A DNA stretch of 64,000 nt from Malacoraja senta (taxonomy: Eukaryota), in assembly GCA_038087875.1 (NCBI GenBank), contig CM075995.1, forward strand, positions 622,001 to 686,000. The letters are read 5' to 3'. This document shows positions 4,716 through 59,133 of the stretch, in pieces (within the stretch, counting starts at the first letter, position 1; each line of letters opens with the position of its first letter). The notes beneath the pieces are model-generated. The model had not been told where the DNA came from. It saw only the letters and a program-made list of their open reading frames with translations, and did not search any database. The translations under genes were made by a program, and so were the position numbers.

Positions 4716-7700
4716 CTTAAAGAGGTATATAAAATCATGAGGGGAATAGATAGGGTGAATGCACAGCATCTTTTACCCAGAGTTTGGGAATCAAGAACCA
4801 GAGGACTTAGGTTTACAGTGGGAGGGGAAAGATTTAATAGATACCCGAGGGGCAACTTTTTCCACTCTGAGGGATTGGGTATATGGAACGAGCTGCCAGA
4901 GGAGGTAGTTGAGGTAGGTACAATAACAACTTGGACCGGGTCAAGGATAGGAATGGTTTAGAGGAACATGGGGTCAAATGCAGACAAATGGGACTAACAT
5001 AAATGAAGCATCTTGGTTGGCATGGACAAGTTGGGCCAAATGGCCTGTTTCATTGACTACGACCATCTCTGTTTAACCTCCACATAACTGTACGCTTGTC
5101 TTAATATTCCAAATGCTTTACTGTATTATCTCAACACTGAAAATAACCAGACCCTTTCAAAGCCTAATCTGAATGCTATTCATTGTACTCTTGAAATGTT
5201 TTTGACCGACGCAAGATTTAATTTGCCCTTTGTTGTTCAGTGGATTAAGCCACATCCACTGCGACTCCTGCCCCTGTACATGATCCATATAGTTCTCCAT
5301 TTCACTCCAAGGATTACTGAAGGGAGGTGTAAACTTTCATGCATTAAATTAGCAATGACTGCTCTAAGAAGGCATTACCATGCAGATAACTGGCATTGGT
5401 GGTCAAAAATACTACACAGATACCCGACCAATGACACACTCCCTTTCTACATGAAAGATATTTTCATCCTGTTGAGAAGCAGAATGATTGCAATGGATAC
5501 TGGGTGGCTGCCAAAGAAACTTTAAATGAAAGTTTACTGGACTCGCTCAAACCTAGGATGTCCCACAGGTTTTTTTCAGCTGTGAAGTGCAGTTGCTGTA
5601 GTAATGTTGGAAGTATGGCGGCATAGTGGTTATTACAGGACCATTACACCAGAGAGAAGTTTAAAACACTGGTGGCTGAGAAATTAAAATTATAATGAAT
5701 ATGAAAATTAAGAAAACTCATTCTTATTAATGAGCTATTTTATCCTTGTAAAAAACTCACTTGGTGGACTAATTTTGATTCTGAAGAAGAAATCGGTGAC
5801 GTTCACTTAGGGAACAAGCAAATAAAAATAATTCTGCAATGTATGGTGACAAAACGCTCCGATGTATGCATCCATTGCTGTCGGTTCATCTGCAAGGCCA
5901 TCCAGTGTACAGATACAGGGTGAAGGGAATAACATTTGGTGCAAGATAAAGTCCAATTAAAGATAATCCGAGGGTCTTCAATGAGGTAGCTCAGGTCCAC
6001 TCTCTGGTTGTTCTTCTCATTTGGTTCAATGTTCCCTTTCGGTACATGTGGCAATTAAACACTCTTGACTCTGAATGCTTCGAGCAGCAAGCCAGTAATG
6101 ATGTCTGGCACCAAGTAATCCCAGTGCACACAGCACCAAGGAGGTTACTATCAGTGCTGACAGACAGACAGACTGTCGACAGCATTTCCTATTATTCTGC
6201 TAATGATCAGAGGTAATTAAGTTTGTTCTGCTGTTAGTGGATATGGCCTGCAAGGCATACCTGGATAATTGTCTGTATAGCTGGGTGGATGCCACTGTGT
6301 AACTGCACATCCACCAACTTGGCTGGAGATGTGGTACAGGCCCACGTGTTATGCAGTAAAGTTGTGATCGATTTAGGCATATTATTATCATCACGTGTAC
6401 CGAGATATAATGAAAAGCGTGAACATAGAACTGTACAGCACAAGAACAGGCCCTTCGGTGTAGAACATGAGAAACGCGGGTTTATTGGATACACTGGTGC
6501 ATACTTTGATTAATCTCACCGATGTTCACCTTGGACTGAGATCTGGAATGGCACCGAATCAGCCATTGCAAGCAGGAGGTAGACAAAAGTGCTGGAGAAA
6601 CTCAGCGGGTGCAGCAGCATCTATGGAGCGAAGGAAATAGGCAACGTTTCGGGCCGAAGCCCTTCTTCAGACGCAGGAGGCACAGGTGAGAACTTCACGA
6701 TGCAGCTTTATAGGATTTTGGTTAGGCTGCATTTGGAGCCATGCAGTTCTGGACGGCCCATTACAGGAAGGGTGTGGAGGCTTTAAGGGGGTGTATGAGA
6801 ACGCTGCCAGGATTACAGGGGTTTCAGCTACAGAGAGACTTTGTTTTCTCTGGAAAGTCAGAGGATGAGGGGAGACTTGATAGAAGTTTATAAAATGATG
6901 AGGCATAGATAGGGTAGGCAGTCAGAACCTTTCTCCCATGGTGGAGATGTCCTACACTAGAGGGCATAGCCATAAGGTGAGGGGAGGGGGGGGGGATAGG
7001 TTTAATGGAGATGTGCAGGCACGTTTTTTTTTAAACTCAGACTAGAGGGGCCCTGGAACACACTGCCAGGGATGATGGTGGAGGCAGGGAACCATATTCT
7101 GTACTCTATACTTTCCCTTTTTGCTCTTTCTATAGTACTTGAGATTGACTGGACTGTGTTTATGTATGGTTTATTAGATCTGATTTGGATAGCATGCAAA
7201 ACAAAGCTTTTCACTGTGCCTCAGTACGTGACAATAATAAGTCTAAACCTAACCATGTCAGAAGGCATTCAAGAGTTAACCACATTGCTGTGTCTTCCGT
7301 CACAAATTGTTCAGACTCAGTACAAGCTAACCTGTTCTTTTTTCTTTTCATGAAGGACACTAGTTGAGCAGCTGGAGTAACTCGACGAGTCAGGCGGCAT
7401 TTCTGGAGAAAAGGAATAGGCGACCTTTCAGGTCGAGAACTTTCTTCAGGGTCTCAACCCAAAACGTCACCTATTCCTTTTCTCCAGCGATGCTGCCTGA
7501 CCCGTTGAGTTACTCCAGCATTTTGTGCCTATCTTGCATGTAAGCCAGCATTTGCAGTTCCTTCCTACACAGCTGGATTTTTTATGCTAATTGTTTAGTT
7601 ACTAACATTAGCATATATTGTTTTTTTGTTAAAAATCCAGATATTTCACTAATGAGTTAAATTCTTTGGATTCTGTGATGGGATTTAGGTTCATAAGATC

Positions 7701-8338: not shown

Positions 8339-11300
8339 AAAATACTAGAGGGCATAGCTTTAAAATGAGAGGGGCAAAGTTTAAGTGAGATATGCGGGGC
8401 AAGTTTTATTTTACACAGAGGGTGGTGAGTGCCTGGAACGTGCTGCCGGGGTCGGTTGCTGAGGCAGACATGATAGTGGCATTTAAGAGGACTTTGGATA
8501 GGCACATGGATATGCAGAGAATGGAGGGATATGGATTATGTGCAGGTAGATAAGAGATGGTCTAGCCATCATGTTCATCACAGACATTGCAGATAAAAGG
8601 CCTGTTCTGTGATGTTCTATGTCCGCAGGTGGGACATGTTGGTCAGCGTGGGGAAGTTGGGCCTGATTCCACACTGTATGACTTCTGTGCTCTGCGATCA
8701 TTGAGCCATCAAAGATAGACGCAAAATGGAGTAACGCAGCGGGTCAAGCAGTATCTCTGGAGAAAAGGAATAGGTGACGTTTCAGGTCGAGACCTTTCTT
8801 CAGATTGAGTTACTCCAGTATTTTGTATATCTATGGTGTAAACCTGGATCTGCAGTTCCTGCCGACGCATCAAAGATCCATCATTACTGTGCCATCGGTT
8901 AAGAATACCATTAGACCAATATTTACACTCACAAGCTCGAGTGGTTTACTTTGCTCTAATCCTATGTCAATTATTCTGTAGTATTCACAAGTTTATTCAT
9001 CTCAATTCTGCATTTGTCTGATTTCCCAGATGTAATAGGGGTGGGTATACAGAACAGGCTGCCAGATGAGGTCGTTGAGGCAGGTACTATAACAACATTT
9101 AAAAGACACTTGGGCAGGAACATGGATAGGAAAGATTTAAAGGGATACGAGCCAAACACGGGCAAATGGGACATCTTGGTCTCGACATCGATGAGATGAG
9201 CTGAAGGACCAGTTTCCGTGCTGAGTGGCTCAATGACTCTAATGAAGCAGACACAACTTTTTTTTTAATACACGTGGAGTTCTGTATTATATCCATAGGG
9301 AGTTTTATTTAAGTTCATTAAAATCTTGTTTGTGTAAAACACAGCATTTGCTCTGACAGATCCTTCCACCGGCAGCGTCCCAGAAGAGGCAGCGGTGGGA
9401 GAGAATGGGATACAGCAACAGTAGGAAACGGGTCCTGGTGGACAGAGCTGTGTCCCAAAAGGATTATCCGCAATTGTTTTGTACTGTTTAAATGGAACGC
9501 TGGATTAGACAGGGCACAATATCACAGGGTGAATGTGGCAAGAGAAGACTGGATATAAACAGTTGTTTTCTCAAAAACAGAGGTGTTTAAAAAAAAAAAT
9601 TCCAAGTCAGCATCTGCTGGCTGATGCTGTTTGACCCGCTGAGTTACTCCAGCACTGTGTCTTTTTATGCATGTTAACCGGCATCTGCAATTCCTTGTGT
9701 CAACATCTCAAGGCTTTGTTTGAATTACCATTACCTGCAGAGATTGGCTCATGTGCATGTAGAAGAGATTAGTTTATCTTGTTTGGCACAGACATTGTGG
9801 GTAGAAGGGCCTGTTGGTGTGCTGTACTGATCTATTCTTGCACTAGGATTTCCACAATACTACATTCAACATTTACTGATAAGTTGTAAACACAGGAAAA
9901 TACCAAATAGGGTCAGTGATAGCCATTCAGCCCCCATTATTCATTAAGATCATGGATAATCTTCTACCTCAATGCCATTTTCTAGCACCATCTTCAGATA
10001 CTTTGATTTCCAGAGTGCTCAGACATCTGTCACTCTGTTTTGAACGAACACAGCAATTGAGTATAGAGAACTCCAATGGTTCATCAATCTATGAATGAAG
10101 ACATTTCTCCTCATCTCAGGCCTAACCAGCTTACCACCGAGTCCCTATTTCCTTTTTGTCCACCTGTCCCCTTCCACCCACATCCCACCCTCCGGCTTTA
10201 CATTTCACTCCTCTTCTCTCTTCAGCCAGCAGGAATCTGAGGGGTAACTTTTTGCACACAAAGGGTGGTGGGTGTATGGAACAAGCTGCCAGAGGAGGCA
10301 GTTAAGGCAGGGACTATCCCAACATTTCAGAAACAGTTAGAGAGGTACATGAATAGGACAGGTTTGAAGGGATATGGACCAAACGCAGGCAGGTGGGACA
10401 TGTTGGCCGGTGTGGGCAAGTTGAGCCGAAGGCCTGTTCCACACTATCACTCTATCCAACACTGTGTCTCCTTTTCATCTCTAGCCTTTATCATTTACTC
10501 CAACCATCTGCCAAAACAAAAACAAAACATCCTCTCACGTGTATCCACCCATCACATGCCAGGCTTTGCCCCACCCCCATCTCTTTATGGCGGCGTAGAA
10601 TTGATCATAAGGTCACCGGCGGTAGGAGCAGAATGGGGCCAGTCAGCCCATCAAGTTTACTCCACTGTTCAATCACAGCTGATCTAACTCTCCCTCCTAA
10701 CCCCATTCTCCTGCCTTCTCCCCGGAACCTCTGACACCCGTACTAATCAAGAATCTATCCATATCTGCCTTAAAAATATTCATTGACGCCCTCCACAGCC
10801 TTCTGTGCCAAAGAATTCCACAGATTCACCACCTTCTAACTAAAGGAATTTCTCCTCATCTCCTTCCTCAAGGAACACCCATTAATTTCTGAGGCTGTGA
10901 CCTCTGGTGCTAGACTCTCCCACTAGTGGAAACATCATCTCCACATCCACTCTATCCAAGCCTTTCACTATTCGGTAAGTTTCAATGAGGACTCCCTCAT
11001 CCTTCTAAACTCCAGCGAGTACAGGGCCAGTGCCATCAAATGCTCAACATATGTTAACCCAACTCATTCAATAGACAATAGGTGCAGGAGTAGGCCATTC
11101 GGCCCTTCGAGCCAGCACCACCATTCACTGTGATCATCCACAATCAGTACCCCGTTCCTGCCTTCTCCCCATATCCCTTGACTCCACTACCTTTAAGTGC
11201 TCTATCTAATGATTCCTGGGATCATTCTTGTAAACATCCTCTGGACCCCTCTCCAGCATCTCCTTCCCCAGATATGGGGCACAAATTTGTTTGCAATACT

Positions 11301-13733: not shown

Positions 13734-14155
13734 CACACCGTCCCATCTACACTACCTGCATTTGGCCCATATATCCTCTAAATCTATCCCTGCCTCAACT
13801 TCCTACTGTGGCAGCTCGTTCCATGCACCCACCACCCTTTGTACCAAAAAGTTGCCCCTCAGGTTCCTGTTAAATCATTCCCCCTTCACCTTAAACCAAT
13901 GTCATCTGGTTCTAATTCCCCTACTCTGGACAAGAGATTCTGTGCGTCTACCCAATTTATTCCTCTCATGATTTTATACACCTCTATAAGTTGAATAAGG
14001 TAAAATGTGTAGGAAAGAACTACAGGCGCTGGTTTATTACAAAGATTGACACAAAATGCTGGAGGAACTCAGCGGGTCAGGCAGCATCTCTGGGGGAAAA
14101 GGAATAGGCGACGTTTCGGGTCGGAACCCTAAAGACGACCCGAAACGTCACCTAT

Positions 14156-15051: not shown

Positions 15052-15337
15052 ATTCCTTTTCTCCAGAGATGCTGGCCTTAGTTACTCCAGCATTTTGTGT
15101 CTATGTTGAGTAAGTAATTCTGTTGGCAAACATGTGATGGTTGCACACTCGTTGGAATAAGGTGAGAACATAGAAAATAGGTGCAGTAGGCCATTCGGCC
15201 CTTCGAGCCAGCATCGCGTTTCAATGTGATCATGGCTGATCATCCAAAATCAGTACCTCATTCCTGCTTTTTCCCCATATCCCTTGATTCCTTTAGCCCG
15301 AAGAGCTATAGATTTATAGAATTATAGAACAATTAGT

Positions 15338-15398
15338 CTGAAGAAGGGTTTCGGCCCGAAACGTTGCTGTCTGAAGAAGGGTTTCGGCCCGAAACGTT
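15338..15398 (+). ncRNA. Tandem pair of minimal type I hammerhead-ribozyme-like cores in a Penelope-like repeat
   Basis: 2 x CTGAAGA-A-GGGT-TTCG-GCCC-GAAACGTT with 33 bp period: CUGANGA box, stem II, GAAA box and palindromic ACGT. Confidence 0.62.
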
Positions 15399-15564
15399 GC
15401 CTATTTCCTTCGCTCCATAGATGCTGCTGCACCCGCTGAGTTTCTCCAGCACTTTTGTCTATGAACAATTACAGCTCAAGTAAGCCCAAATTGCCTGAAT
15501 TTACCCTCCAGTGCCAGTGGATTATTGCATTGAAGATTTTTTCACTCCTTGTGGTAGGGCCAGC

Positions 15565-17493: not shown

Positions 17494-19283
17494 TTCAGGA
17501 CATCCTCCATGTGTGACATGACAAAAGTCTACAAACCAGCTAACAATATTATAAATTACAATAACTAATCCCTCAATTAACGGGAACAACTGCAGTACTA
17601 CTTTGCAAGGAGACTATCCATTTTCTACGCTAAGATAATGGCGAGGACAAACTTTGGAGCTCGGAACAGTAAAAGTTTACGTTAGTCTTGCTGCTGTGAC
17701 GTGCGAGCGCAGTGTGACTCTGCTTGACATAGCTTTAATCAAGTCATTACATTGTAATAGAATTGCCGGGACCCGATTACTGCATAAACAAAACACTGGA
17801 CAAAACAGATCTACATGTGTCGGAAGGAACGGCAGATGCTGCTTTACGCCGAAGATAAGACACAAAATGCTGGAGTAACTCGGCGGGACAGACAGCACCT
17901 CTGGATAAAAGGAGGAAGTGACGTTTCGGGTCGGGACTCTTCGGGAATGGGTGAAGGTCTCAATCCGAAAAGTCACCCATTCCTTCTATCCAGAGATGCT
18001 GCCTGTCCCGCTGAGTTACTCCAGCATTTTGTGTCTAATACAGATCTACAGATGTGAACCTCTGAACCATGCTCTAGCTTTCTTAAAGTGGTTCGGCTAT
18101 ATCAAAGTAAAGCTTGGAGCATAGGAAGGAAAAGACTTCACAGCTACTTTTACGGGTTCTGCTTCTGCCTACATCACATCATGCAGACACCTTAAGTAAT
18201 GGCAGAAAAGGGAGTCAGGGGTTATGGGGGGAAGGCAGGAGAATGGGTTTGAGTGGGAAAGATAGATCAGCCATAATTGAATGGCGGAGTAGAATTGATG
18301 GGCCAAATGGCCTAATTCTACTCCTAAAACCAATGTTAGCTTCGTTATGTCACAAAGAATAGGAGTAGAATTAGGCCATTCGGCCCATCTACTCCGCCAT
18401 TTCAATCATGGCTGATCTATCTCTCCTCACCCCATTCTCGTGCCTTCTCCCCATAACCTTTGACACCCGTACTAATCAAGAAATGTTATCAAGTTATGTA
18501 AATGTAGAGACCTCCTCCCTGATACAAATTGAGGTTTGCTTTGAGTTGGTCAAAAAACTAGTTTGATAGCATTGGTCAAAAAATCTACGGTTAATATAGA
18601 TGAAGCATAACTGATAAAACCCAAATGTATTTTCAAAATATAATGGAGATTGGTTTAAAAACAACTTGATGTCCAATTACTTTCCTAATAAGGACAACAT
18701 ATAGCCTGACTAGGAAAGTAAGGTAAAATGTTCCACAGTATTGGCACTGGGATATAAAGGAAGATATATGGAAGTTTAATTGAAACTATTGCACTGGGAT
18801 CACACTTTAGTTTTTGCTGAATTTGGAATAAACTTGAGACATTTTCTTTTAAAAAAAGGACAAGTCTGACTTTCTTCCCCCCCCCCCCCCCCCCCGTTTA
18901 CAAAGAATAATGGCAATTGAGATGCACAATTATATAATCAAGAGTTCCTATAACTAATTCCCATTGAACTGAAAAAATACTGTGGTTTAAAACTTGTGAA
19001 AGATTCAGGTGAGATGATGTCAAACTAAGCGCATTTAGGTACAAAGGTGGCAATTGCATTCGAAATATGTCACGTGTATTGTAACTCTCGGGTGACTAAA
19101 GACGTACAGAGCCAGAAAGGCTGCTGATCGTTGCACCCCTACTTGTGAAGCAGTTAACTGCAAGGTATCTGACTACTGTGTGTGGTATGCTGTGGTTGCA
19201 CAAAGTGTAAAATCGCATTATGGTGAATTGGTATCTCTAGAAACCCCACGGGTCAAAGGTGGAGCAGCTCCTCAAATGAGCAG

Positions 19284-19367: not shown

Positions 19368-19809
19368 CTAGAAAGGAAACAAAACTCGTGTGAGCGGATA
19401 GGATTTCATGCCCGGAACAGAAAACTCACTTTCAAAATTACAGAGATTAGACACAAGAGTGCTGGAGTAACTCAGCGGGTCAGGCAACATATGTGGAGAA
19501 AAAGGATGGGTGACGTTTCGGGTCGGGACCCTTCTTCCCGACCAACAATGCTGCCCATCCTTTTTACTCCAAAGATGCTGCCTGACATTACATTAAACAC
19601 TACAACCTCCATTAGCTCTGGATTACAGAGACTATTATTGCACCATTATTGCTGTTTGTCTTTTAATTGTACGTATGTGTGTGTATATACGTGTGTGTGT
19701 GTGTGTGTGTGTGTGTGAGTACATGTGTATATACACACACTGAACTTTTTTTCTCATTTTTATTATGTTGTTTTTTTCTCGTTTATTATATTGGTGATTA
19801 GTTGCAGAT

Positions 19810-20245: not shown

Positions 20246-20289
20246 CCACTAATTTACCCTGAGTTACAGGTCACAACCTGGCCACTCCT

Positions 20290-23092: not shown

Positions 23093-23436
23093 GGTACTGA
23101 TTGGGGATGATCAGCCATGATCACATTGAATGGCAGTGCTGGCTTGAAGGGCCAAATGGCCTACTCCTGCACCTATTGTCTATTGTCTATTGACAATTTT
23201 TTACATTTACCAAGCCAATTAACCTACAAACCTGTACGTCTTTGGAGTGTGGGAGGAAACCGAAGATCTCGGAGAAAACCCACGCAGGTCACGGGGAGAA
23301 CGTACAAACTCCGTACAGACAGCACCCGTAGCCAGGATCGAACCCGGATCTCTGGCGCCGTAAGCGCTCGAGAGGCAGCAACTCTGCCGCTCCTTTGTTA
23401 AGCTCCCAGTTCTTTAAATATTTAGTAATCGCTTAC

Positions 23437-23560
23437 CTATGGTAATGGAATTGATTTTGCCTTGAATTTTAATCACAGAGTTGTTGCATTTGTAGACGTA
23501 GGCAACGTGTTTGAGTTCTGCCTCAGAAATGACCAGGCTTCTTTCATTCTCTTGATATTC
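23437..23560 (-). CDS. CAP2: CAP2 internal exon, CARP domain ([41 protein letters not shown])
   Basis: Acceptor ttttttaag|GAA (phase 0), donor ATA G|GTAAG (phase 1), 124 bp. In frame with the preceding exon and similar to CAP2 EYQEDRNDLVISETELKQVAYIFKC as recalled. Confidence 0.92.
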
Positions 23561-25525: not shown

Positions 25526-26400
25526 GACACAAAAGGCTGGAGTAACTCAGCGGGTCAGCCGACATCACTGGAGAAAAGGAATAGGTGACTTCAAGTAACC
25601 CTTGCTTCCGCTCTCTCTCCATCTCTCCCCCTTCCCAGTTTTCTGACCAGTCTTAAGGGGCTGTCCCACTGCGGCGACCTAATCCGCGAGTTCAGAGGAG
25701 TTTGCCCTCGACTCATACTCGCAGCATGGTCGACACGAGGTCCTAGGGGAACTCTCCTTCATGCTCGAGAGTAGTCCCCGTGTACTCGAGGCCTCAGCTA
25801 GGTCGCGGCGTATTTTTCAACATGTTGGAAAATGCCCGCGAGTTAAAAATGGTCGCCATGGAAAAAAAACGATATTTTTTTTTACTCGTGGGTTTAGTCG
25901 AAGTAGGTCGTAGTAGGTCGGCATGTTAGTCGTAGGTAATCGAAGGTAGTCGTAGGTAATCGAAGGTAGTTGAAAGTAGTCGTAGATAGTCTTCAACATA
26001 GTCGAAGGGAGGTTGAAGGAGATCGAAGGAGGTCTTCAACATGACTCTTTTTCAACTCTCCTAAACTCGCCAATTAGGTCGCCGTAGTGGAACAGCCCTT
26101 TTACTGTCTCCCACTACATTTTATCTGTTTGCTTTGTTGTTAACTTCTCCCCAGCTAACAATGATCTATTCCACAGTTCCCTTGATCTCCATTCCCTTTA
26201 TCCTATTTTCACACCTTACACTTCCTTATCTATGTATCTCCCTCTCCCCTGACATCAGTCTGAAGAAGGGTGTCGACCCGAAATGTCACCCATTCCTTCT
26301 CTCCAGAGATGCTGCATCACCCGCTGAGTTACTCCAGCTTTTTGTGTGTTTATCTTCGGTTTAAACCAGCATCTGCATCTGCAGTTCCTTCCTACACGAA
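25526..26400 (+). mobile_element. Penelope-like pseudo-LTR/3' UTR fragment with inverted partial copy at its 5' side, interrupted by a MITE
   Basis: Pyrimidine-rich body, hammerhead-like core at 26260-26287, and the tail ccagagatgctgc...gctgagttactccagc...ccagcatctgca. Inverted copy of the tail at 25526-25590. No RT/GIY-YIG coding part visible. Confidence 0.65.
25656..26100. mobile_element. Harbinger-type MITE
   Basis: TIR AGGGGCTGTCCCACTGCGGCGACCTAAT / ATTAGGTCGCCGTAGTGGAACAGCCCTT; TSD TTA/TTA; internal ggtagtcgta-like short repeats. Confidence 0.85.
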
Positions 26401-26819
26401 TAGGTGACGTTTCGGGTCGAGACTCTTCTTCAGACTGGTCAGTGCAGGAACATGCCCCTTGGCCCACCATGTCCTCACCGAACATGATGCCAAGTCAACC
26501 TCTGCATAATCTACTATCTACTTCATTGGTGACCCTTGGACTATCCTTGATTGGATTTGCTGGCTTTATCTTGCATTAAACCTTATTCGCTTATCATGTA
26601 TCTGCACACTGAAAACGGTTCGATTGTAATCATGTATTGTCTTTCTGCTGACTGGATAGCACGCAAAAAAACCTCGGTACACGTGACAATAAACTAAACT
26701 GATCTTGCAACAGAACTGTGCAGGAAAGAACTGCCGGTGCTGGTTTAAAGCGAAGATAGACACAAAATGCTGGAGTAACTCAGCGGGTCAGGCAGCATCT
26801 CTGGAGAGAAAGAATGGGT

Positions 26820-26847
26820 GACGTTTCGGGTCGAGACCCTTCTTCAG
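26820..26847 (-). ncRNA. Minimal hammerhead-ribozyme-like core (GUC cleavage triplet) in a Penelope-like repeat
   Basis: Minus strand reads CTGAAGA-A-GGGT-CTCG-ACCC-GAAACGTC. Confidence 0.62.
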
Positions 26848-27360
26848 ATTGAAACGTCACCCATTCCTTCTCTCCAGAGATGCTGCCTGTCCCACTGAGT
26901 TGCACCAGCTTTTTGTGTCTATCTTCTTGCTACTGAAGTGACTGATCTTGCCTGCACGCGGTCCATACCCCTGCATATCCATGTGACTGTTCATTAGCCT
27001 CTTGGAAATGACCCTAGGGAGTACTGAGGAAGAGAGGGACCTCGGTGTAAGAGTCCAAGGGTCCCAGAAAGTTGTAGCACAGTAAGATAAGGTGAAGAAG
27101 GCAGATGTGAAATCGACCTTCGTTAGAGAGAGAATTTGAGTGTAGGAGCAAGGAGGTCCTACTGCAGTTGCAACAGGGCTCAGGTGAGACCGCACCTGGA
27201 GTATTGTGTGCAGTTTTGGTCTCCTAATTTGAGGAAGGGCATTCTTGTTATTGAAGGAGTGCAGCGTAGGTTCAACAGGTTAATTCCCGGGATGGCAGGA
27301 CTAACATATGATGAAAGATACATCAACTTGTCTTATATTCACTGGAATTTAGAAGGATGA

Positions 27361-29697: not shown

Positions 29698-29886
29698 TGT
29701 GCGTGTGCGTGCGTGCGTGCGTGCGTGCATGTGTGTGTGTGTGTGTGTGTATATATGTGTGTGTATATGTGTATATGTGTGTGTGTGTGTGTGTATATGT
29801 GTGTGTGTATGTATATGTGTGTGTGTATATGTATGTGTGTGTGTGTATGTGTATATGTGTGTGTGTGTGTGTGTATGTGTGTGTGT

Positions 29887-29968
<82 letters not shown>

Positions 29969-30270: not shown

Positions 30271-30301
<31 letters not shown>

Positions 30302-30468: not shown

Positions 30469-31940
30469 AGCTTAGAGGTGCAAAGTCTTAAGTGTTTTAT
30501 GTGCAATAGCCAAGTCTAATGCTTAAAACAGTTACTTAAATCCAACATTCATTCGTTTCCGTTCACTACCTTTCTCACTCATTTAACATCTCTAAGAAAT
30601 GTATAACTAATTAATTTCAATATGAGATGGTTGAAGAAAGAAATTCAAAGTTACTTGATGAAAGATCACTGGTCTATGATCATTCACTTTGCATTTACAG
30701 TGTACAGATACTTATCATGTGTCTGTACACTCTGAATGTCTCGATTGTAATCATGTATTGTCTTTCCGCCGAATGGCCAGCACGCAACAAAAGCTTTCCA
30801 CTGTACCTCGGTACACGTGACAATAAACTGAACTGAACTGAACTGGAACTGAAACTGTAGTAAAGATTTGTGTCCTCTGCTGCCTTCTCAGTATCCACTC
30901 AATATTCGTTACACCATCATTACAAGAATCATACTCAGTCAACCTGGAAATGTGGCTTTGTTCATAGTGAACACCCTCATCATTTGTGTCAGTAGGTCAT
31001 AAGTCACAAGGTCATAAGTGATAGGAGTATAATTAGACCATTCGGCCATCAAGTCTAGTCCACCATTCAATCACGGCTGACCTATCGCTCCCTCCAAACC
31101 CCATTCACCTGCCTTCTCCCCATAATCTCTGACACCTGCACTAATCAAAAATCTGTAGGAAGGAACTGCAGATGCTGGTTTAAACCGAAGGTAGACACAA
31201 AAAGCTGGAGTAACTCAGCGGGTCAGGCAGGCTCTCTGGAGAGAAGGAATGGGTGACGTTTCAGATCTGAAGAACGGTCTTGACCCGAAACGTCACCCAT
31301 TCATTCTCTCCAGAGATGCTGCCTGTCTCGTTGAGTAACTCCAGCTTTTTGTGTCTAATCAAAAATCTATCTATCTCTGCCTGAAAAATATCCACTGACT
31401 TGGCCTCCACAGCCTCCTGTGGCAAAGAATTCCACAGATTCACCAACCTATGCCTAAAGATTTTTAGTTGCTGATACAGGTTGAACACTGATTGTCCGCG
31501 ACCCAGGGGCTACAACGTGAGCTGCAACAGCAGCAGGATCACTGGACTGTGCGGTGGGTGAAGAAGGGCTGTTGCGAGTCGGGAGTGGGGTCGGAAGCCG
31601 GGGCTCTAAATGCCCGGGAGACGATGGAGACTGGGGAGGGGTTCAGCAGGTTTTAGTTTCAGTTTTAGACATACAGCGCGGAAACAGGCCTTTCGGCCCA
31701 CCGAGTCCGCACCGACCAACGATCCCCGCACACTGACACCACCCTACACGCACGAGGAACACTTTTTTACGCATACACCAGGCCAATTAACCTACAAACC
31801 TGTACGTCTTTGGAGTGCGGGAGGAAACCGAAGATCTCGGAGAAAACCCACGCAGGTCACGGGGAGTACGTACAAACTCCGTACAGACAGCACCCGTGGT
31901 CGAGATGGATCCCGGGCCTCCGGCGCTACAAGCGCTGTAA

Positions 31941-32134: not shown

Positions 32135-33269
32135 TTAGGCAGCAACTCTATCTCTGCGCCCTATCCATTCCTCGGTCATTCCAAGCACATTCAGTTTACA
32201 TTTTTCTATATGTGTAGGAAGGAGCAAAAGAACGCTGGTTTAAACCAAAGATCGAGACTGAAAGCTGGAGTAACTCAGCGGGACTGGCAGCATCTCTGGA
32301 GAGAAGGAATGGGTGAACATTTCAGGCCGAGACCCTTCTTCACACTGCCTCACCCGCTGAGTTACTCCAACTTTTTGTGTCTATCTTACATTTTATATTA
32401 TAGTTTCTGGCACTCCGTGCTTTGGAAACACGGGAGGGGTGTCATCAGCGGGCCAGGGGTACATTGCCATTTCGGTACAACGTGACCTCTGGATCATCCA
32501 GAAAGACTCTGGATCCGAGGATGTCGGGAAAAAAATCGGTGTTGAACCTGTATCTACAACCACGATTTAAACGCCACGCACACGACCAGCTTGTGGAGCT
32601 TCACAAAGTTCTGTAAGGAATTGTCAGCTCTTAATTTGAGAAGGCAGGTTTTCAACAACAACTTGCATCTCAGCGATACTTAACGTTGAACGCACTAGGG
32701 TCATATTCCCACTTGGCTTATCCTGCCTCGGCTGGCTTCCAACAAAATATTAACTAGGGATGAGTTTGACAAGAATCCCAAGATTTTAAGGCCAGTACTG
32801 AGGAGGCCTACTGTGAGCAATTTTGGGCCCCATATCTGAGGAAGGGTGTGCTGGCTCTGGAGAGGGTCCAGAGGATCCCAGGAATGAGTGGGTTAACATA
32901 TGATGAGTGTTTGACAGCACTGGGCCTGTACTCACTGGAGTTTGGAAGGATGAGGTGGGGGGGGAGGACCTCTGAAATTTACCGAATAGTGAAAGGCCTG
33001 GTTAGAGTGGATGTGGAGAGGATGTTTCTACTAGTCTTAGAGGAGAGGCCAAGGCCTCAATTGAAGGACGTACATTTAGAAAGATGAGGAGGAATTTCTT
33101 TAGTCAGAGGGTGGTGAATCTGTGGAATTCATTGCCACAGATGAATGTGGAGGCCAGGCCATTTTAAGAAGGATTTTGAGTTACTTGATTGGTAAGGGTG
33201 TCAGGGGTTATGGGGAGAAGGCAGGAGAATGGGGTTGAAAGGGAAAAATAGATCAGCCATGATTGAATG

Positions 33270-40527: not shown

Positions 40528-43500
40528 CCAGCAGAAACGACTCTCCAACCAACCAGCTACACAACTCCTTACCCAGTCCTAACTAGGAAATGTAAAACAG
40601 GAAGTTCAAGATAGATATAAATCACAATCACACAGCAAAAAAAGGCAAAGGAAAACAGTAAAAGCAGAAAGAAAAGGAAAAGCTGACTCGAAAGCTTACT
40701 TCAGGATTACTTGTGAAAACAAATTTTCATTGCATAAGGAATTGTTTGATCCCAATTGGCATAGAAGGGTGGCACGACGTTAGAGTTGCTGCCTCACAGC
40801 GCCAGAGACCCGAGTTCAATCCTGACTACGGGTGCTATCTGTACGGAATTTGTACATTCTCCCCGTGATCTCATTGAAACATATAAGATTGTTAAGGGTT
40901 TGGACACGCTAGAGGCAGGAAACGTGTTCCCGATGTTGGGGGAGTCCAGAACCAGGGGCCACAGTTTAAGAATAAGGAGTAAGCCATTTAGAACGGAGAC
41001 GAGGAAACACTTTTTCTCTCAGAGAGTGGTGAGTCTGTGGAATTCCCTACCTCAGAGGGCGGTGGAGGCCGGTTCTCTGGATGCTTTCAAGAGAGAGCTA
41101 GATAGGGCTCTTAAAAATAGCCAAGTCGGGGGATATGGGGAGAAGGCAGGAACGGGGTACTGATTGGGGATGATCAGCCATGATCACATTGAATGGCGGT
41201 GCTGGCTCGAAGGGCCGAATGGCCTACTCCTGCACCTATTGTCTTTTGTCTATTGTGACCGCGTGGGTTTTCTCCGGGTACTTTGGTTTCCTCCCACCCT
41301 CCAAAGATGTACAGGTTTGTAGGTTAATTGGGTATGGTAAATTTGTAAATTGTCACTAGTGTGTGTAGGATAGTGTTAGTGGAAGAGGTGATCGCTGGTC
41401 GGCGCGGACTCGGTGGGCCTAAGGGCCTGTCTCCGCGCTGTGTCTCAAAAGGGGAGGCCATTTAAGACTGAGGTGAGAAAAAACCTTTTTCACCCAGAGA
41501 GTTGAGAATTTGTGGAATTCCCTGCCACAGAGCGCAGTGGAGGCCAAATCACTGGATGGATTTAAGAGAGAGTTAGATAGAGCTCTAGGGGCTAGTGGAA
41601 TGCAGGGATATGGGGAGAAGGCAGGCACGGGTTATTGATTGGGGACGATCAGCCATGATCACAATAAATGGCGGTGCTGGCTCGAAGGGCCGAATGGCCT
41701 CCTCCTGCACCTATTTTCTATGTTTCTAAAAGCCTAAAGTCTAAACAAATTTTCAAGGATCAAGCCTGATAACAGCTGGGAAGAAACTGTCCCTGAATCT
41801 GGAGGTATGCGTTTTCTGTACCTCTTGTGCCTGATGGGAGAGGGGAGAAGAGGAAGTGATCGGGGTAGGTCTGGTCCTTAACTATGCTGCTGGCCTTGCC
41901 AAGGCAGCGTGAGGTGTAGATGGAGTCAATGGAAGGGAGGTTGGTTTGCTGGGCCACATTTCAATTGAAAGTAATTTATTATTGTACATAAATGAGCCAA
42001 AACCATTACCAAGGGTTAACGAGGTGGTGGAGTGGAAGGCCCCCCAGAATTTCTGGACGCCTAAAGCTTTAGGAATATAGTCTGCTACTTTAGTTTAGTA
42101 TAGTTTAGAGATATAGCGCAGAAACAGGCCCTTCGCCCCACCGAGTCCGCATCGACCAGCGGTCACTTTCGTACACGCTGGAGGAATTTTACAGAAGTTA
42201 ATTAACCTACAAACCCCCACACATCTTTGGGACGTGGCAGGAAACCGGAGCACCCGGAGGAAACCCATGCAGGTCACGGGGAGAACGTACAAACTCCGTA
42301 CAGCCTGCACCCGTAGTCAAGATCGAACCTGGGTGTCTGGCGCTGTGAGGCAGCAACTCTACCGCTGCGCCACCGTGCCGCCCTAATTTCTGGTCAACCA
42401 AGTGTTTAGGAATCCAGTCTGCTACTCTTAAGACTAATCCAAAGGGCTAAAATGTCCATCTTCCTCTCACGTTTAAAACTGACGCGTGTAATACACCAGG
42501 GAAAGCAAACCATGGGTCAGGCAGCAACAAGGTGGATGATGCCAGGACTCGATAGTCCAAGGTATAGGGAGAGGTTGAGTAGGCTGGGTCTCTATTCCTT
42601 CTAGTGCAGGAAGATGAGGGGTGATCTTACAGAAGTGTATAAAATCATGAGAGGAATAGATTGGGTAGATGCACAGAATCTCTTGCCCAGATTAGGTGAA
42701 TCTAGGACCGGTTTAAGGCGAAGGAGAAGTATTTAATGGGAATCTGAGGTGTAACTTTTTCACAAAAATGGTGGTGGGTGTATGGGAACAAGCTGCTGAA
42801 GGAGGTAGTTGAGGCAGGGACTATCCCAACATTTAAGAAGCAGATAGACAGGCACATGAATATTGTAGGAAGGAACTGCAGATGTTGGTTTCAACCGAAG
42901 ATAGACACAAAATGCTGGAGTAACTCAGCGGGACAGGCTGCATCTCTGGAGAGAGAGGGAATGGGTGACGTTTCAGTTCGAGACCCTTCTTCAAACTGAA
43001 GGGTCTCGACCCGAAACGTCACCCATTCCTTCTCTCCGTAGGTACATGGATAGGACAGGTTTGGTGGGATATGGGCCAAATGCTGGCAGGTGGGACTAGT
43101 GTAGACGGGACATGTTGGCCGGTGTGGGCAAGTTGGGCCGAAGGGCCTGTTTCCGCACTGTGTCATTCTGTGACTCTAAGTCGGGCCTATTTCCGCACTG
43201 TGTCATTCTGTGACCCTAAGTTGGGCCTGTTTCCGCATTGTGCGACTCTATGGCTCTGAGTGCCCAGTCTGGGTTTTTTTGTTTATTCCGTGAGTTAGCA
43301 CTTTGGAAGCTGCCATCATGTTGTCCCTCAGCATCTTCCAAAAGGCCCTGATGCGTGGAAATCAGAGCCTGGTGCCCGGGGGCCGGGAAACAATTGAAGG
43401 CCCTGACGGGAAGAATAGCTGAGGCTTATCAGGCGACTGCGTATCGTCATCTGCTGAGGCCGTGGCTTTACAGGATTACCTCAGCTGTTTGTGACTGCAA

Positions 43501-46645: not shown

Positions 46646-47344
46646 TTTGTAACTCTGGCGGGGCCAAGATGTGGCGACACTTGTGTACTGCCTGGGTCAT
46701 GAGTGCTGTATGATTTTACCGGGTTGTGTGTAAAATAAAGCATTTCACTGCTGCCTCGGTACATGTGACAATAATGTATCATTGAAGTATCATAATTTTG
46801 CAAAATATGTAGGGATGCAGGAATATCGATCATGTGTGAGCGACAACTGATGAATTTCTTCGCAGCTCGTCAGCTGTTCCAACACGTGCAAAGATGTTAT
46901 TTCCATCTGACATTCATATCTTATTTTCTTTCCTCCCCCCCCCCCCCCCCAATCCATCCCTCCCTTATGGTCTGTAGGAAGACTGCAGATGCTGGTTTAA
47001 AACAAAAATTAGACACAAAATGCTGGAGTGACTCAGCGGGACAGGCAGTATCTCTGGAGAGAAGGAATGGGTGACGTTCGGGTCTGAAGAAGGGTCTCGA
47101 CCCGAAAAACGTCACCCATTCCTTCTCTCCAGAGATGCTGCCTGTCCCGCTGAGTTACTCCAGCATTTTGTGTCTATCTTCCCGTGGTGCCGTTGGGAAG
47201 GCACGTGCAGCGAGGAAACCCTTCAGTTTTCCTTCTCCTCATCCCATCACTGTTGGTGTTAAAGACGAGAACATGAGAAGAATAGACCTGGTGGACAGGA
47301 TGCATCACAGCTTGGTTTGGGAACAGCTCCATCCAAGACCGCAA

Positions 47345-47820: not shown

Positions 47821-49091
47821 ATATTCAAAGAGTTTCTTGCCCAGAGTAGGGAAATCGAGAACCAGAGGATATAGGTTTATGGTGAAGGGGGAAAAAATTA
47901 ATAGGAACAGGAGGGGTAACTTTTTCACATAAAGAGCGGTGGATGTATGGAACGAGTTGCCGGAGGAGGTAGTTGAGGTAAGTTTTATAACAACAATTAA
48001 AAGACATTTAGACTAGTACTAGTACATAGACTAAACGTAGGAAGTTGGGACTAGTTGAGCAGATGAGTTGAACAGGTACTTTGGATCTGTCTTCACTAAG
48101 AAAGTATTTAGCTCTTAGGGCTAAGAGTTATATATAACTCTCTCTTGAAAACATCCAGTGAATTGGCCTCCACTGCCTTCTGTGGCAGAGAATTCCACAG
48201 ATTCACAACTCTCTGGGTGAAAAACTTTTTCTTCATCTCAGTCCTAAATGGCCAACCCCTTATTGTCAAACTGTGTGACCCCTGGTTCTGGACTCCCCTA
48301 ACATCGGGAACATTGTTCCTGCATCTACCCTGTCCAATCCTCCAAGAATTTTACATGTTCCTATAAGATCCCCACTCATCCGTCTAAATTCCACGAATAC
48401 AAGCCCATTCGACCCATTCTTTTATCGAGTCCCACCTGCCTGCATTTGGCCCGTATCCCTCTAAACCCGTACTATCCAGGTATCTGTCCAAATGTTTTTT
48501 TTTTAATGTTGTGATAGTACCCACCTCAAACTACCTCCTCTGGCAACTCGTTCCCTACACCCACCACCCTTGTGTAGGAAGGAACTGCAGATGCTGGCTT
48601 ACACCGAAGATAGACACAATATGCTGGAGTAATTCAGCGGGGCAGGCAGCATCTCTGGATGGAAGGAATGGGTGACGTTTCGGGTCGAGACCTTTACCAC
48701 CCTTTGTGTAAAAAGAGTTACCCTACAGGTTCCTATTAAATATCCCCCCCCCCCCCCACCCCTCACCTTAAACCTATGTCCTCTGGTTCTTGATTTTGTG
48801 AATTTTGCATAAGTTCCATTTATAGCTGCACTTATTTGTAAACATCACAGGAACATCAAAGCACGTACAGTCATAGTTTAAGACCACAGTTAAAGAATAA
48901 GGAGTAAGCCATTTAGAACGGAGACGAGGAAACACTTTTTCTCACAGAGAGTGGTGAGTCTGTGGAATTCTCTGCCTCAGAGGGCGATGGAGGCAGGTTC
49001 TCTGGATGCTTTCAAGAGAGAGCTAGATAGGCCTCTTAAAAATAGGATGTGGAGAAGGCAGGAACGGGGTACTGATTGGGGATGATAAGCC

Positions 49092-53342: not shown

Positions 53343-53965
53343 TCGCTGTGTACCTCCGATTAATAACACGAGATGAAAGAGCCGTACGGAATATGAAGGG
53401 AAGGTTTAACAAACAAAAAACACAAGCTGCATTAATAAATGCGCAGAAATTTCTACGTTTAGTTTAGTTTCTTTGAGATACAGTGTGGAAACCGTCCTCT
53501 GGCATACCATGTCCACGCCGACCAACGATCACCCGTACAATAGTTTGCAAGTTATAGGAGTAGAATTAGGCCATTCGGCCCACAGACTCTATTCCGCCAT
53601 TCAATCATGGCTGATTGAATCAAGCAGTTCTCATTGAGAACTGATTGAGTAGTTCTATCCTACTTACTAGCAACAATTTACAGAAGCCAATTAACCTAAA
53701 TACCTGCACATCTACCGCTGTGCCACTCAATAGTACTTAGTATGAAGAAGAGTCTCGACCCGAAACGTCACCTATTCCTTTTCTCCAGAGATTCTGCTTG
53801 ACCCGCTGAGTTACTCCAGCATTTTGTGTCTATCTTCGATTTAAACCAGCATCTGCATTTCCTTCCTAGACGTACTAAGAAATGTTATGCATTTTCACAA
53901 ATTAATTTTAGATAGGTATTTAGGTTGATATTAGTTGATATGGGCGGCACAGTGGCGTAGCAATA

Positions 53966-56929: not shown

Positions 56930-59133
56930 TGTTAATTGTGCAAAAGCTAATGCGGTTACGAACACCTGGATACAATAGAGTTGCTGCCTCACAGCGCCAG
57001 GGACCCGGGTTCGACCCCGACTACGGGTGCTGTCCGTAGGGAGTTTGTACGTTCTCCCCTTCACCTGCGTGGGTTTTCTCCGGGTGCTCCGGTTTCCTCC
57101 CACACTCCAAAGAGTGTACAGGTTTGAAAGTTAATTGGTATAATTGTAAATTGTCCCCAGTGTGTGTGTGTAGGATAGTGTTAGTGTGCAGGGATCGCTG
57201 GTCGGTGCGGACTGTATCTCTGAACTAAACTTTATTTTTTTTTAAAGAAGATTTTTTTTTTTTATGTCTCCAATGTTCCGCAGCAGGCGCTCGAGCGGCT
57301 TTTGTGTCTGTAGTCTTTATCTCGATTCCCGGTGCTTTTTTTTGAAAGTTATAGTCTTTCAGAACAAGTGGAGACTTAGCCCAGTCCACAACACATTGAC
57401 TGAGCAGGTGTGGGGCTGAGTTAGACATAGGTCCTTTGTTAAGTCGTTTCTTCACTGAAAACAAAACTCAAGTGAGCAGGCACTTACTGTCCCATTATGG
57501 GAACACCTGTTATAATTGAGCACATCAGCCGGTGACATACGACCCTTGCAAGTTAACAGCTGAACAGCAGCCCACTGCTTTTTGAGGCCGTAAAATAAAA
57601 AGGACTTTCGGGAGCAAACAAAGAATTGCTCAGTAGGAATTATTTACCAGGGATGTATAAACTCTTCATCAGCATCTGCTGTCTGTCATCAGGTGTCCAG
57701 GTGTTCGTAACCGCATTAGCTTTTATACAATTAACAATGTCCAGCTTCACAAAGCAGCCTTCTGCTTAGTTGTCTCTTCCTCGTTACACTGCACTGTTCT
57801 ACCCAAGTGCACTTGCAAAGGGTAGGTTGTTCAGCGAAATCCATCATGAAATTTGGTTGCATTCAATTCAAAGCTGGAAGGTGGGATCAAAGGAGCAGTC
57901 TGGACAATAAGGAAGTTGTGTTTGTACATCACTGCTGTTTGCCTTCCCAAAAACGTCTTTCTTAAGGTAGACAAAAGTGCTGGAGAAACTCAGCGGGTGC
58001 AGCAGCATCTATGGAGCGAAGGAAATAGGCAACGTTTCGGGCCGAAAACCCTTCTTCAGACTGATGTAGTGTGGGGGTGGTTCCCTGCGGGTTACAGGGG
58101 CGGCGTGGTGGTGCAGCGCTTGAGCCTCACAGTGCCAGAGTCCCGGGTTCAATCCTGACCACGGGTGCTGTCCGTACGGAGTTTGCACGTTCTCCCTGGG
58201 ACCTGCGTGGGTTTTCCCCGGGTGTGTGTCTGAGTTTAGTTTATTGTCACGTGTACCGAGGTACAGTGAAAAGCTTTTGTTGCGTGCTGACCAGTCAGCG
58301 GAAAGACAATACATGATTACAATCGAGCCGTCCACAGTGTACAGAACAACGTTTAGTGCAAGGTACTGCAAAGCCAGTATAGTCTAAGAGTCTCCAATGA
58401 AGCAGATAGTAGTTCAGTACTGCTCTCTAGTTGTGGTAAGAGGCAGGTCACGCATGTTTGTGGGTTAATTGGCATTGGTAAAGATTGTAAATTGTCCCTA
58501 GTGTGTAGGATAGTGCTAGTGTACGGGGCGATCACTGGTCAGTGCGGACTCGGGTGGGCTGAAGGGCCTGGTTCCGCGCTGTATCTCTGAACTAAGCTCA
58601 AAATAAAGTATACATGGAACCGTGCAGCACAGAAATGGGACCTTTTCTGGAAGAAAAAGCACTTGTCTTTCTCAATATTCTGTTACAGAACACTCGACAC
58701 GAAACGTCACCCATTGCTTCTCTCCAGAGATGCTGCCTGTCCCGCTGAGTTACTCCAGCTTTTTGTGTCCGTCTCCAATATTCTGTTAATTGGATTTATA
58801 CGTTTTGCAACATTAATAAACCAAGTTTAGGTGACATGAGGCAACACTTAAGTAAACATTTTCATGAAGTTGTGATTTTAACAGCTAGTTATTTTATTCC
58901 AAAGCAGCTAATATACGCCACAAAAAAAAAGGCTTATTTGTGGTCCAGAGGTCCACATATCTAAATGCCAAATGAATGGTCACTGACCTAATTCTGCTTA
59001 TCGCTAGACATATTTTTAATATTGCGTTTCTGCGAGGTGTTCATTCACTGCCTGATCACGGACTGAGATCAAAGTAAGCACAAAAATAAAGATTTTAAAA
59101 GTCTGAAGAAGGGTCTCAATCCGAAATGTCACA

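What the first reader, a model, noticed from the sequence alone, without database searches (positions are those of the whole stretch)
25526..26910. High-copy Penelope-like repeat carrying a minimal hammerhead ribozyme core
Seen: one of the commonest short repeats here contains CTGAAGA-A-GGGT-YTCG-RCCC-GAAACGTY. Intact or near-intact cores are at 6643-6670(-), ~8776-8803(-), 15338 and 15371(+), 26260(+), ~26406-26433(-), 26820-26847(-), 31267(+), 47084(+), ~53742(+), ~58031-58059(-) and 59103(+). Two subfamilies keep stem II paired (U-A versus U.G at pair 4) and a YUCG loop. Established: CUGANGA/GAAA/UH is the hammerhead core, and Penelope-like elements carry minimal type I hammerheads with a palindromic helix III that work as dimers. 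Inference: this genome is seeded with potentially self-cleaving motifs, several on the sense (minus) strand of CAP2 and FAM8A1 introns. Caveats: an extra A follows A9, and helix I is only 2-3 bp by eye.
Basis: partly seen in the sequence, partly recalled or inferred. Interest (0 to 1): 0.75.

Follow-up and report, generated by a model that had tools for sequence, protein, structure and literature searches.

The report
Penelope-type hammerhead repeat in skate introns
This abundant short skate repeat is the end piece of a Penelope-like jumping gene and carries a known minimal self-cutting RNA motif, but its scattered copies look copied from uncut RNA and are probably inactive where they sit.

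Summary
The window is from a skate (CAP2/FAM8A1 region) and holds 36-40 pieces of a ~133-nt repeat, 5% of the DNA. The motif matches the published Penelope-like element (PLE) minimal hammerhead consensus; the extra A is a defining trait of that class, not a caveat. The repeat has PLE anatomy: two 3' ends 34-40 nt apart (the 'tail'), head-to-head inverted pairs with the tail on one arm, and 8-14 bp target duplications. No RT or GIY-YIG sequence was found, so the protein link is not shown. 'Seeded with self-cleaving motifs' is weakly supported: helix I is 2 bp, stem II is predicted unformed in solo copies, inverted pairs bury the cleavage site, and sense-strand copies are not depleted. One extra observation: 5' ends pile up around 3 nt before the core (12 of 35) and rarely at the cleavage site (1 of 35), so copies derive from uncleaved RNA. 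The scan noted this class before in shark DNA. Verdict: new member of a known kind.

The parts
25526..25589 (-). Inverted arm of the repeat (repeat positions 29-92, no core, no tail), head-to-head with the long copy
25590..25652 (+). Upstream part of the only long copy; begins TTCAAGTAA (TAA at 25596-25598), then pyrimidine-rich. That this TAA ends the PLE ORF is recalled, not tested
   Evidence: no other copy in the window; contigs laid on it in all three contig runs
25656..26100 (.). 445-bp MITE-like insertion with terminal inverted repeats and a TTA duplication (25653-25655, 26101-26103); not part of the repeat
   Evidence: MITE-free join 25653>26103 in 3 contigs of run X1
26104..26256 (+). 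Pyrimidine-rich region upstream of the ribozyme (77% pyrimidine with the first part); unit without the MITE is 360 bp
26255..26260 (+). TCAGTC; its A (26257, repeat position +1) and next G are the preferred 5' boundary of copies; resembles an initiator (recalled consensus)
26260..26287 (+). Minimal hammerhead motif: CUGAAGA, extra A, 4-bp stem II, GAAA, helix III palindrome (decayed to AUGU here), C17; predicted cut between 26287 and 26288; helix I 2 bp
26288..26357 (+). Repeat body up to the first 3' end cluster (positions 92-99)
26358..26397 (+). Optional 34-40 nt tail ending at positions 131-133
   Evidence: tail as described in PMC8557442
26398..26442 (-). Short inverted piece with core; stem II broken
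26718..26852 (-). Full short copy with tail; core and stem II intact, helix I 1 bp; sense strand of a CAP2 intron
26851..26926 (+). Its inverted arm (positions 24-99); pairs with GAAACGUC and the cleavage site in a -143 kcal/mol hairpin; 11-bp flanking repeat
6577..6672 (-). Solo U.G-subfamily copy, fully canonical, 8-bp flanking repeat; sense strand of the presumed FAM8A1 intron 1
15335..15462 (+). U.G-subfamily copy with a 33-nt direct duplication giving two canonical cores (15338, 15371); 9-bp flanking repeat; opposite strand to both genes
57964..58067 (-). U.G-subfamily copy, canonical with one extra U at the loop; carries 5 nt of upstream sequence
7371..7570 (.). Head-to-head pair, tail on one arm
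8712..8866 (.). Head-to-head pair, tail on one arm, 10-bp flanking repeat; core at 8803(-) with A-U closing stem II
14007..14155 (.). Head-to-head pair with a short second arm
17817..18037 (.). Head-to-head pair, tail on one arm, 11-bp flanking repeat
19448..19586 (.). Head-to-head pair, no tail on either arm
31154..31357 (.). Head-to-head pair, tail on one arm, 14-bp flanking repeat; core at 31267(+) with G10.1>C
32212..32387 (.). Head-to-head pair, tail on one arm, 9-bp flanking repeat; C3>G
42864..43037 (.). Head-to-head pair, tail on one arm; C3>U
46973..47181 (.). Head-to-head pair, tail on one arm; core at 47084(+) with two extra A
48572..48695 (-). Solo copy from position 10 with tail, 9-bp flanking repeat
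53739..53871 (+). Solo copy from +1 to tail end; C3>A
59100..59132 (+). Piece from +1 to 33; palindrome decayed

Best explanation
The repeat is the terminal (pseudo-LTR) segment of a skate Penelope-like retrotransposon family with at least three subfamilies, and it carries the known metazoan minimal type I hammerhead. Shown from sequence: motif, two 3' ends, inverted pairs, target duplications, preferred 5' boundary. Inferred by analogy with the anole element PAc: the element's protein nicks AT-rich DNA, starts reverse transcription inside its RNA at one of two sites (repeat positions ~92-99 or ~131-133), and copies back to the RNA's 5' end. Priming on both strands would give the head-to-head pairs. 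Copies usually run through the cleavage site and many stop just 5' of the core, so the template was uncleaved RNA that probably began about 3 nt before C3 (a transcription start; inferred). The ribozyme core is kept in the source elements, where it likely cleaves slowly, as a dimer through the ACGU palindrome and with protein help. The dispersed copies are passengers that decay and mostly do not cut host pre-mRNA.
For: Motif equals the published consensus CUGANGAH-G..C-GAAA-N-palindrome-N-U-H. 3' ends: 14 of 36 at 92-99 and 14 of 36 at 131-133. The tail is on exactly one arm in 10 of 11 head-to-head pairs and never on both; in 7 pairs the other arm ends at 92-99. This is the PLE pattern in PMC8557442 and PMC8969392. 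Flanking direct repeats >=8 nt at 9 of 24 loci against 5 of 552 mismatched pairings. Flanks are 64% AT against 53% for the window (20 loci). 5' ends: 12 of 35 at -2..+4 (simulation p=0.0012), 1 of 35 at 31-33. Loose ends at 26257/26258 with unrelated upstream letters in runs X1 (710 and 751 contigs) and X15 (98). Summed contig depth rises about tenfold between the bins on either side of that boundary in all three contig runs (not a copy number). PAc: internal initiation at two sites matching the tail, both strands extended, uncleaved RNA the dominant substrate, ribozyme needs protein, no RNA-seq ends at the site. Columns that separate subfamilies: 0 of 11 in the core against 17 of 59 downstream (p=0.055).
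Against: No RT or GIY-YIG sequence of a PLE was found. Pfam on 398 stop-free frames returned a CAP exon, LINE-type RT/EN and one weak DUF hit. Protein searches with a frame across the repeat found no such protein. Collection scans gave 0 or chance hits. Covariation is not significant (19 of 500 shuffles). Private mismatches are somewhat lower in the core than downstream (4 of 217 against 53 of 1,235; p=0.09); this fits neutral decay but does not exclude selection on copies. Two short copies carry 5-8 nt upstream of +1 (58067, 26442), and 21 of 35 pieces start downstream of +4. Run X17 lists no loose end at 26257, and only 18 of 1,827 loose-end rows were shown. The transcription-start reading rests on a post hoc 6-nt motif (0.13% of positions). 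No cleavage was measured.
Confidence: 0.72

Rival explanations
1. One reading: the dispersed copies are working ribozymes that cut CAP2 and FAM8A1 pre-mRNA, pairing in trans or between neighbouring copies.
For: Four fully canonical copies, two on the sense strand (6670-, 58059-). The repeat's abundance raises the chance of trans pairing. Core mismatch is 1.8% against 4.3% downstream (p=0.09). The 15338/15371 tandem supplies two cores 33 nt apart.
Against: Double-hammerhead folds score 11-20 kcal/mol above the dimer MFE in 5 of 5 copies. For the tandem, helix III probability is about 0 (-6.9 against -28.4 kcal/mol). Sense copies are not depleted (8 of 13). Published: no monomer cleavage and low dimer activity for a Schistosoma motif; 8 of 9 Xenopus dimer elements did not cleave.
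Confidence: 0.1
2. The short repeat is a self-propagating non-autonomous family (SINE-like or retrozyme-like): short copies are transcribed from their own +1 and re-mobilised by PLE protein, rather than being by-products of full-length elements.
For: Only 1 of 36 pieces carries the upstream region. The 5' start is well defined. The U.G subfamily is very homogeneous (98-99% identity). PLE promoters are internal (PMC2377424). pLTR-derived non-autonomous elements are described.
Against: No tandem arrays of the unit. In PAc the protein needs RNA extending beyond the initiation sites, which short copies lack. The same pattern follows from full-length RNA without a second assumption.
Confidence: 0.2
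3. The 5' boundary is not a transcription start but a splice acceptor (pyrimidine tract, then CAG before TCTGAAG, as in the D. virilis intron that ends at helix I) or a template-switch hotspot at the TCAG-T-CTGA inverted repeat.
For: Upstream is 77% pyrimidine and ends in CAG. The D. virilis intron ends at helix I. Three pairs join as A-TCTGAAG.
Against: A spliced template predicts a fixed upstream exon and a boundary at 26259. The listed loose ends are at 26257/26258 with letter agreement of only 0.31-0.34.
Confidence: 0.25
4. Not a PLE: the 3' piece of some other LINE, SINE or DIRS element whose match to the hammerhead is chance.
For: No PLE protein link shown. No Rfam hammerhead hit even at E<=10. 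The ribozyme fold is not the MFE.
Against: All core positions, the extra nucleotide, G10.1-C11.1 and the palindrome match together. The tail on one arm and inverted 5' copies are PLE traits. DIRS lack target duplications, whereas 9 of 24 loci have them. No poly(A) or simple-repeat 3' end is visible.
Confidence: 0.05

Closest known systems
Minimal hammerheads (min-HHR) in pLTRs of metazoan PLEs (Cervera and De la Pena 2014, PMC4209133)
   Same: Core, extra nucleotide after A9, G10.1-C11.1, CG palindrome at 15.2/16.2, mostly dispersed single copies, nearby opposite-strand pairs.
   Different: No cartilaginous fish among the 56 motifs of its Fig. S3. Helix I of 2 bp and stem II of 4 bp are at the short end of the range.
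PAc (Poseidon of Anolis carolinensis; Frangieh et al. 2024, PMC11167929)
   Same: Hammerhead roughly 60-100 nt before two alternative 3' ends that define a tail; AT-rich targets; uncleaved RNA as template.
   Different: In PAc the ORF starts at stem II. Here the first ATG lies at about position 53 and, read by eye from the aligned copies, opens only a short frame. The skate clade is not determined.
Non-LTR retrozymes (Li et al. 2026 preprint 10.64898/2026.07.22.740005)
   Same: Type I hammerhead, pLTR origin; reported in one chondrichthyan with mean consensus length 363 bp, close to the 360-bp unit here.
   Different: Those are tandem arrays with two or more complete units. Here copies are solo or inverted. 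The species is in a supplement I did not see, so the length match may be chance.
D. virilis Penelope (Schostak et al. 2008, PMC2377424)
   Same: Internal TATA-less promoter with initiator in the pLTR; 2-bp helix I.
   Different: Its start lies 46 nt before a 75-nt intron that ends at helix I. Here the boundary is 3 nt before the core.

Membership tests
Metazoan PLE min-HHR | Core CUGANGA ... GAAA-N-N-U-H | tested here: met
   8 descriptor hits against 0.04; core unchanged in 11 of 15 spanning pieces (3 C3 changes, 1 two-A insertion)
Metazoan PLE min-HHR | One extra nucleotide between 9 and 10.1 | tested here: met
   A in 16 of 16 cells; trait named
Metazoan PLE min-HHR | G10.1-C11.1 closing stem II | tested here: met
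   GC 14, AU 2, GU 2, unpaired 3 of 21
Metazoan PLE min-HHR | Palindromic 15.2/16.2, no monomer helix III | tested here: met
   ACGU in 11 of 15 spanning pieces
Metazoan PLE min-HHR | Short helix I (2-5 bp) | tested here: met
   2 bp; 2-bp cases in Culex, D. virilis and Oikopleura rows
Metazoan PLE min-HHR | Covariation in the stems | tested here: inconclusive
   Score 0.20, reached by 19 of 500 shuffles; 21 related rows
Metazoan PLE min-HHR | Self-cleavage as dimer or with protein | not testable with these tools
   No assay; folding disfavours the active form
EN+ Penelope-like element | ORF with telomerase-like RT and GIY-YIG endonuclease | tested here: inconclusive
   None in the frames scanned; no genome held; protein and DNA searches gave no link
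EN+ Penelope-like element | Optional 30-40 bp tail, often on one end only | tested here: met
   Ends at 92-99 (14 of 36) and 131-133 (14 of 36); one arm only in 10 of 11 pairs
EN+ Penelope-like element | Inverted 5'-truncated copy at the 5' end | tested here: met
   11 head-to-head pairs
EN+ Penelope-like element | Partial tandem forming direct pLTRs around an ORF | tested here: inconclusive
   Only a 33-nt direct duplication at 15335-15367; no full element in the window
Non-LTR retrozyme | Tandem array of two or more complete units | tested here: not met
   Locus list shows solo and inverted copies
Rfam hammerhead families | Match to a curated covariance model | tested here: not met
   0 at gathering score in the window; no hammerhead family at E<=10 in 15250-15550 or 26100-26950
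tRNA-derived SINE | tRNA-like head and A-rich or simple-repeat 3' end | tested here: inconclusive
   No tRNA gene called (a weak test for SINE heads); 3' flanks show no such end

The most novel reading that the evidence does not exclude
The skate element's transcript starts at an initiator only 3 nt before the hammerhead core, so at the RNA's 5' end helix I cannot exceed 3 bp and the motif stays off, also held by a competing hairpin. Internal initiation of reverse transcription ~95 or ~132 nt downstream then makes a short 'leader' cDNA that is inserted far more often than the full element. The genome would thus hold a very large natural record that Penelope copies are made from uncleaved RNA, and that the ribozyme's job is something other than making the template's ends (for example removing the cap, or trimming spent RNA).
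Probability: 0.3. Interest if true: 0.5.

Novelty: new member of a known kind. Interest (0 to 1): 0.25.

Why it matters
The class has been in print since 2014 and reaches thousands of copies in frog and coelacanth genomes, so finding it in a skate extends the range without changing the picture. The useful part is the boundary map. The role of PLE hammerheads is described as still unclear. A vertebrate family whose copies begin at a preferred point just before the core and end at two fixed points lets one test, from genome data plus CAGE, whether cleaved RNA is ever the template. It also warns that several percent of skate intron sequence will light up in ribozyme and hairpin scans without implying activity.

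Tried and rejected
Whole-genome search: no genome held. Rfam: no hammerhead match; the microRNA-family hits at 26778-26905 reflect the inverted-pair hairpin and were rejected. Exact-pattern scans of metagenome, prokaryote and viral collections: 0 hits with the core pattern; 1, 2 and 0 hits with a 22-nt downstream pattern, all three chance matches without flanking similarity. Pfam: 150 + 107 of 263 listed minus-strand frames and 141 of 204 listed plus-strand frames (short, overlapping or low-complexity ones left out; frames lying mostly in window-repeated DNA were never listed); no GIY-YIG. A frame across the repeat as protein query: none of 151 candidates scored; 5 hits among the representatives, of which 3 are translations of other copies of the repeat and 2 are unrelated repetitive proteins, none with RT or GIY-YIG. 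Sequencing runs: no RNA holder listed; the raw-read run X22 laid 0 reads, so it was no test, and X15 and X17 are only guessed to be RNA. A designed on/off switch: the competing hairpin (positions 6-15 with 32-43) is the usual MFE but is no more stable than shuffles (z from -1.15 to +0.36, 8 sequences) and shows no covariation (110 of 500), so it is not claimed as selected. Cleavage at the upstream AUC triplet as the source of the +1 boundary: rejected; pairing probability 0.001 and only 3 nt are left for helix I. Literature: no paper prints five 20-21 nt strings of the repeat. 'hammerhead ribozyme + shark + retrotransposon + cartilaginous' gave 0 papers. 'Penelope + skate + transposable elements + Leucoraja' gave 1 and 'Penelope + elasmobranch + genome + repeat' gave 5, seen as listings only. 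The Craig 2021 supplement file searched had 0 hits. Lunse et al. 2017 is not held. Repbase and Dfam could not be checked, so the family may well be catalogued there.

Full report
Host and setting. The window is from a skate or close relative. An exon at 23560-23438(-) matches Pfam CAP_C and is 100% identical over the aligned part to Leucoraja erinacea CAP2. The frame at 11634-12191(-) is 76% identical to Rhinoraja longicauda FAM8A1. CAP2 exons map to 38036-37878, within 34429-34151, 23560-23438 and 19367-19287, and FAM8A1 exon 1 to 12131-11652, all on the minus strand. Other exons of both genes were not found in the window, so the outer intron assignments are inferred. No whole genome is held.

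Observation. All 12 sites are present. The strict core pattern gives 8 matches against 0.65 expected, and a relaxed descriptor gives 8 against 0.04. A profile built from 9 copies finds 36 pieces and none in the reversed window; these group into 25 loci. One iteration gives 40 pieces covering 5.4% of the window. Fifteen pieces span C3 to U16.1. Three have C3 changed, one has two extra A, five have a broken stem II pair, and four have lost the ACGU palindrome, with overlap among these. Four are fully canonical: 6670-, 15338+, 15371+, 58059-. All four belong to the U.G subfamily, whose three loci are 98-99% identical.

Match to the known motif. Cervera and De la Pena 2014 (PMC4209133; main text parts 1-2 of 4 and supplement parts 1-2 of 3 read) give the consensus CUGANGAH, G..C, GAAA, N, palindrome, N, U, H. 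They name the nucleotide between 9 and 10.1, the G10.1-C11.1 pair and the palindromic 15.2-16.2 as conserved traits. The skate motif has all of them, so the extra A is expected. Their Fig. S3 has 2-bp helix I cases and no cartilaginous fish. Rfam has no matching model. Covariation on 21 window rows is not significant; the subfamily differences are one-sided wobble changes.

PLE anatomy. 3' ends fall at positions 92-99 (14 of 36) or 131-133 (14 of 36). The second cluster coincides with the model's end, but flanks diverge there and target duplications lie at or within a few bases of it. Eleven loci are head-to-head pairs. The tail is on exactly one arm in 10 and on both in none; in 7 the other arm ends at 92-99, and in 3 it is cut shorter. 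Craig et al. 2021 (PMC8557442, passages) describe this pattern: an inverted 5'-truncated copy and a 30-40 bp tail often at one end only. Goubert et al. (PMC8969392, passages) list the same traits and note that DIRS lack target duplications. Direct repeats of 8 nt or more flank 9 of 24 loci, against 5 of 552 mismatched pairings. Flanks are AT-rich (64% against 53%, 20 loci).

The long copy. Only 25590-26397 extends well upstream of the core. It is interrupted by a 445-bp MITE-like element with a TTA duplication, and contigs of run X1 show the MITE-free join. The unit without it is 360 bp. It begins with TTCAAGTAA; that this is the end of a PLE ORF is my recollection and comes from no call. I found no PLE protein: Pfam scans of 398 frames, two protein searches and six collection scans gave no link. 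Membership therefore rests on non-coding traits.

The 5' boundary. Taking A26257 as +1 (C3 is +4, the cut follows +31), 12 of 35 short pieces start at -2..+4 (simulation p=0.0012, best 7-nt window anywhere), 1 of 35 at 31-33 and 3 of 35 at 29-33; the long copy was left out. Copies with target duplications (6672, 15335) start at +1 or +2. In laid contigs, the upstream loose ends with unrelated letters lie at 26257 and 26258 in X1 and at 26257 in X15, with letter agreement of 0.31-0.34; none is listed at 26288. X17 lists none at 26257, and only 18 of 1,827 rows were shown. Summed depth rises about tenfold across this boundary in all three runs; the tool warns that it is not a copy number. Copies that include the core upstream of the cleavage site cannot come from the 3' cleavage product. 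This agrees with Frangieh et al. 2024 (PMC11167929; parts 1-2 of 4 and passages): reverse transcription starts inside the RNA at two sites matching the tail, both strands are extended, ribozyme mutants insert normally, the ribozyme needs the protein, and no RNA-seq ends were seen at the site. The boundary sits on the A of TCAGTC, which fits the initiator consensus as I recall it (0.13% of positions, post hoc). Penelope has an internal promoter with an initiator (PMC2377424, passages). A splice acceptor or a template-switch hotspot are the alternatives; two copies with 5-8 upstream bases show that the start is not absolute.

Are the copies active? Predicted folding says mostly not. Stem II probability is below 0.03 in 7 of 8 copies; the exception, 26847, has its cleavage site inside a long inverted hairpin. 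Seven inverted loci fold at -72 to -150 kcal/mol. Double-hammerhead folds lie 11-20 kcal/mol above the dimer MFE in 5 of 5 copies, and the natural tandem at 15338/15371 prefers another hairpin. These models ignore tertiary contacts and proteins. Core-bearing intronic pieces are 8 sense and 5 antisense (p=0.58). Private mismatches are 4 of 217 in non-CpG core cells against 53 of 1,235 downstream (p=0.09), with alignment-end bias favouring the core; including subfamily columns the downstream rate is 158 of 1,726 (p=4e-5). Subfamily-diagnostic columns avoid the core (0 of 11 against 17 of 59, p=0.055). This fits selection on source elements and near-neutral decay of copies, but the sample is small. 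In print, the Schistosoma monomer did not cleave and its dimer was weak. Eight of nine Xenopus dimer elements did not cleave (Li et al. preprint, parts 1-3 of 5 read, supplements not seen). A review calls PLE rates very low even as dimers (PMC6765202, passages). Lunse et al. 2017 I saw only as a title in that reference list.

Novelty. The class is known. Type I hammerhead tandem elements are already reported for one chondrichthyan. My searches found no paper printing this family, but repeat databases could not be checked. Three earlier notes of this scan reach the same class in shark DNA; they are unchecked and I do not count them as support. Verdict: new member of a known kind, interest 0.25. 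The boundary map is the part worth following up.

Noticed in passing
window 25656-26100; related pieces at 884-938, 21761-21983, 44541-44571, 61820-61846: MITE-like family with terminal inverted repeats and a TTA duplication (PIF/Harbinger-like by recalled TSD rule), inserted into the long copy of the repeat.
   Followed up: partly
window 49116-51764 (-): Near-complete LINE ORF2: a 203-aa endonuclease frame and a 678-aa RT frame separated by one stop; CR1-like by recall. Many 3' fragments elsewhere.
   Followed up: partly
window 19368-23437; N run 22893-23092: CAP2 exons for residues 366-440 were not found between the flanking exons; a 200-N gap lies there, so probably an assembly gap.
   Followed up: partly
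window 1-11651: No further FAM8A1 exon in 11.6 kb downstream of exon 1, so intron 1 is long or the assembly breaks.
   Followed up: no
window 15334-15371 (+): The 33-nt duplication gives the first core an accidental 4-bp helix I; the best candidate in the window for a trans-dimer assay.
   Followed up: partly
window 17942(-), 19537(-), 21350(-), 14130(-); 16868-16940(-); 39003-39046(+): A third subfamily with C at the second loop position (also seen as loose ends), and older, more diverged pieces of the same repeat.
   Followed up: partly
window 8806, 26850, 31266: Three inverted pairs join with an A directly before TCTGAAG instead of the usual G; at 31261-31272 the junction is a perfect palindrome, suggesting fold-back at the 5' end.
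   Followed up: no
window 48572-48695: A copy with a 9-bp duplication appears to sit inside a LINE fragment, so it inserted after that LINE copy.
   Followed up: no
window 8039-8316 and about 24 other loci: A ~280-bp SINE-like repeat as common as the hammerhead repeat; not characterised.
   Followed up: no
window about 29700-30500: Long degenerate TG/CA microsatellite that produces spurious long frames.
   Followed up: no
window 45434-45886 (+): Decayed frames resembling another LINE clade (L2/Rex-like by recall); no Pfam hit.
   Followed up: no
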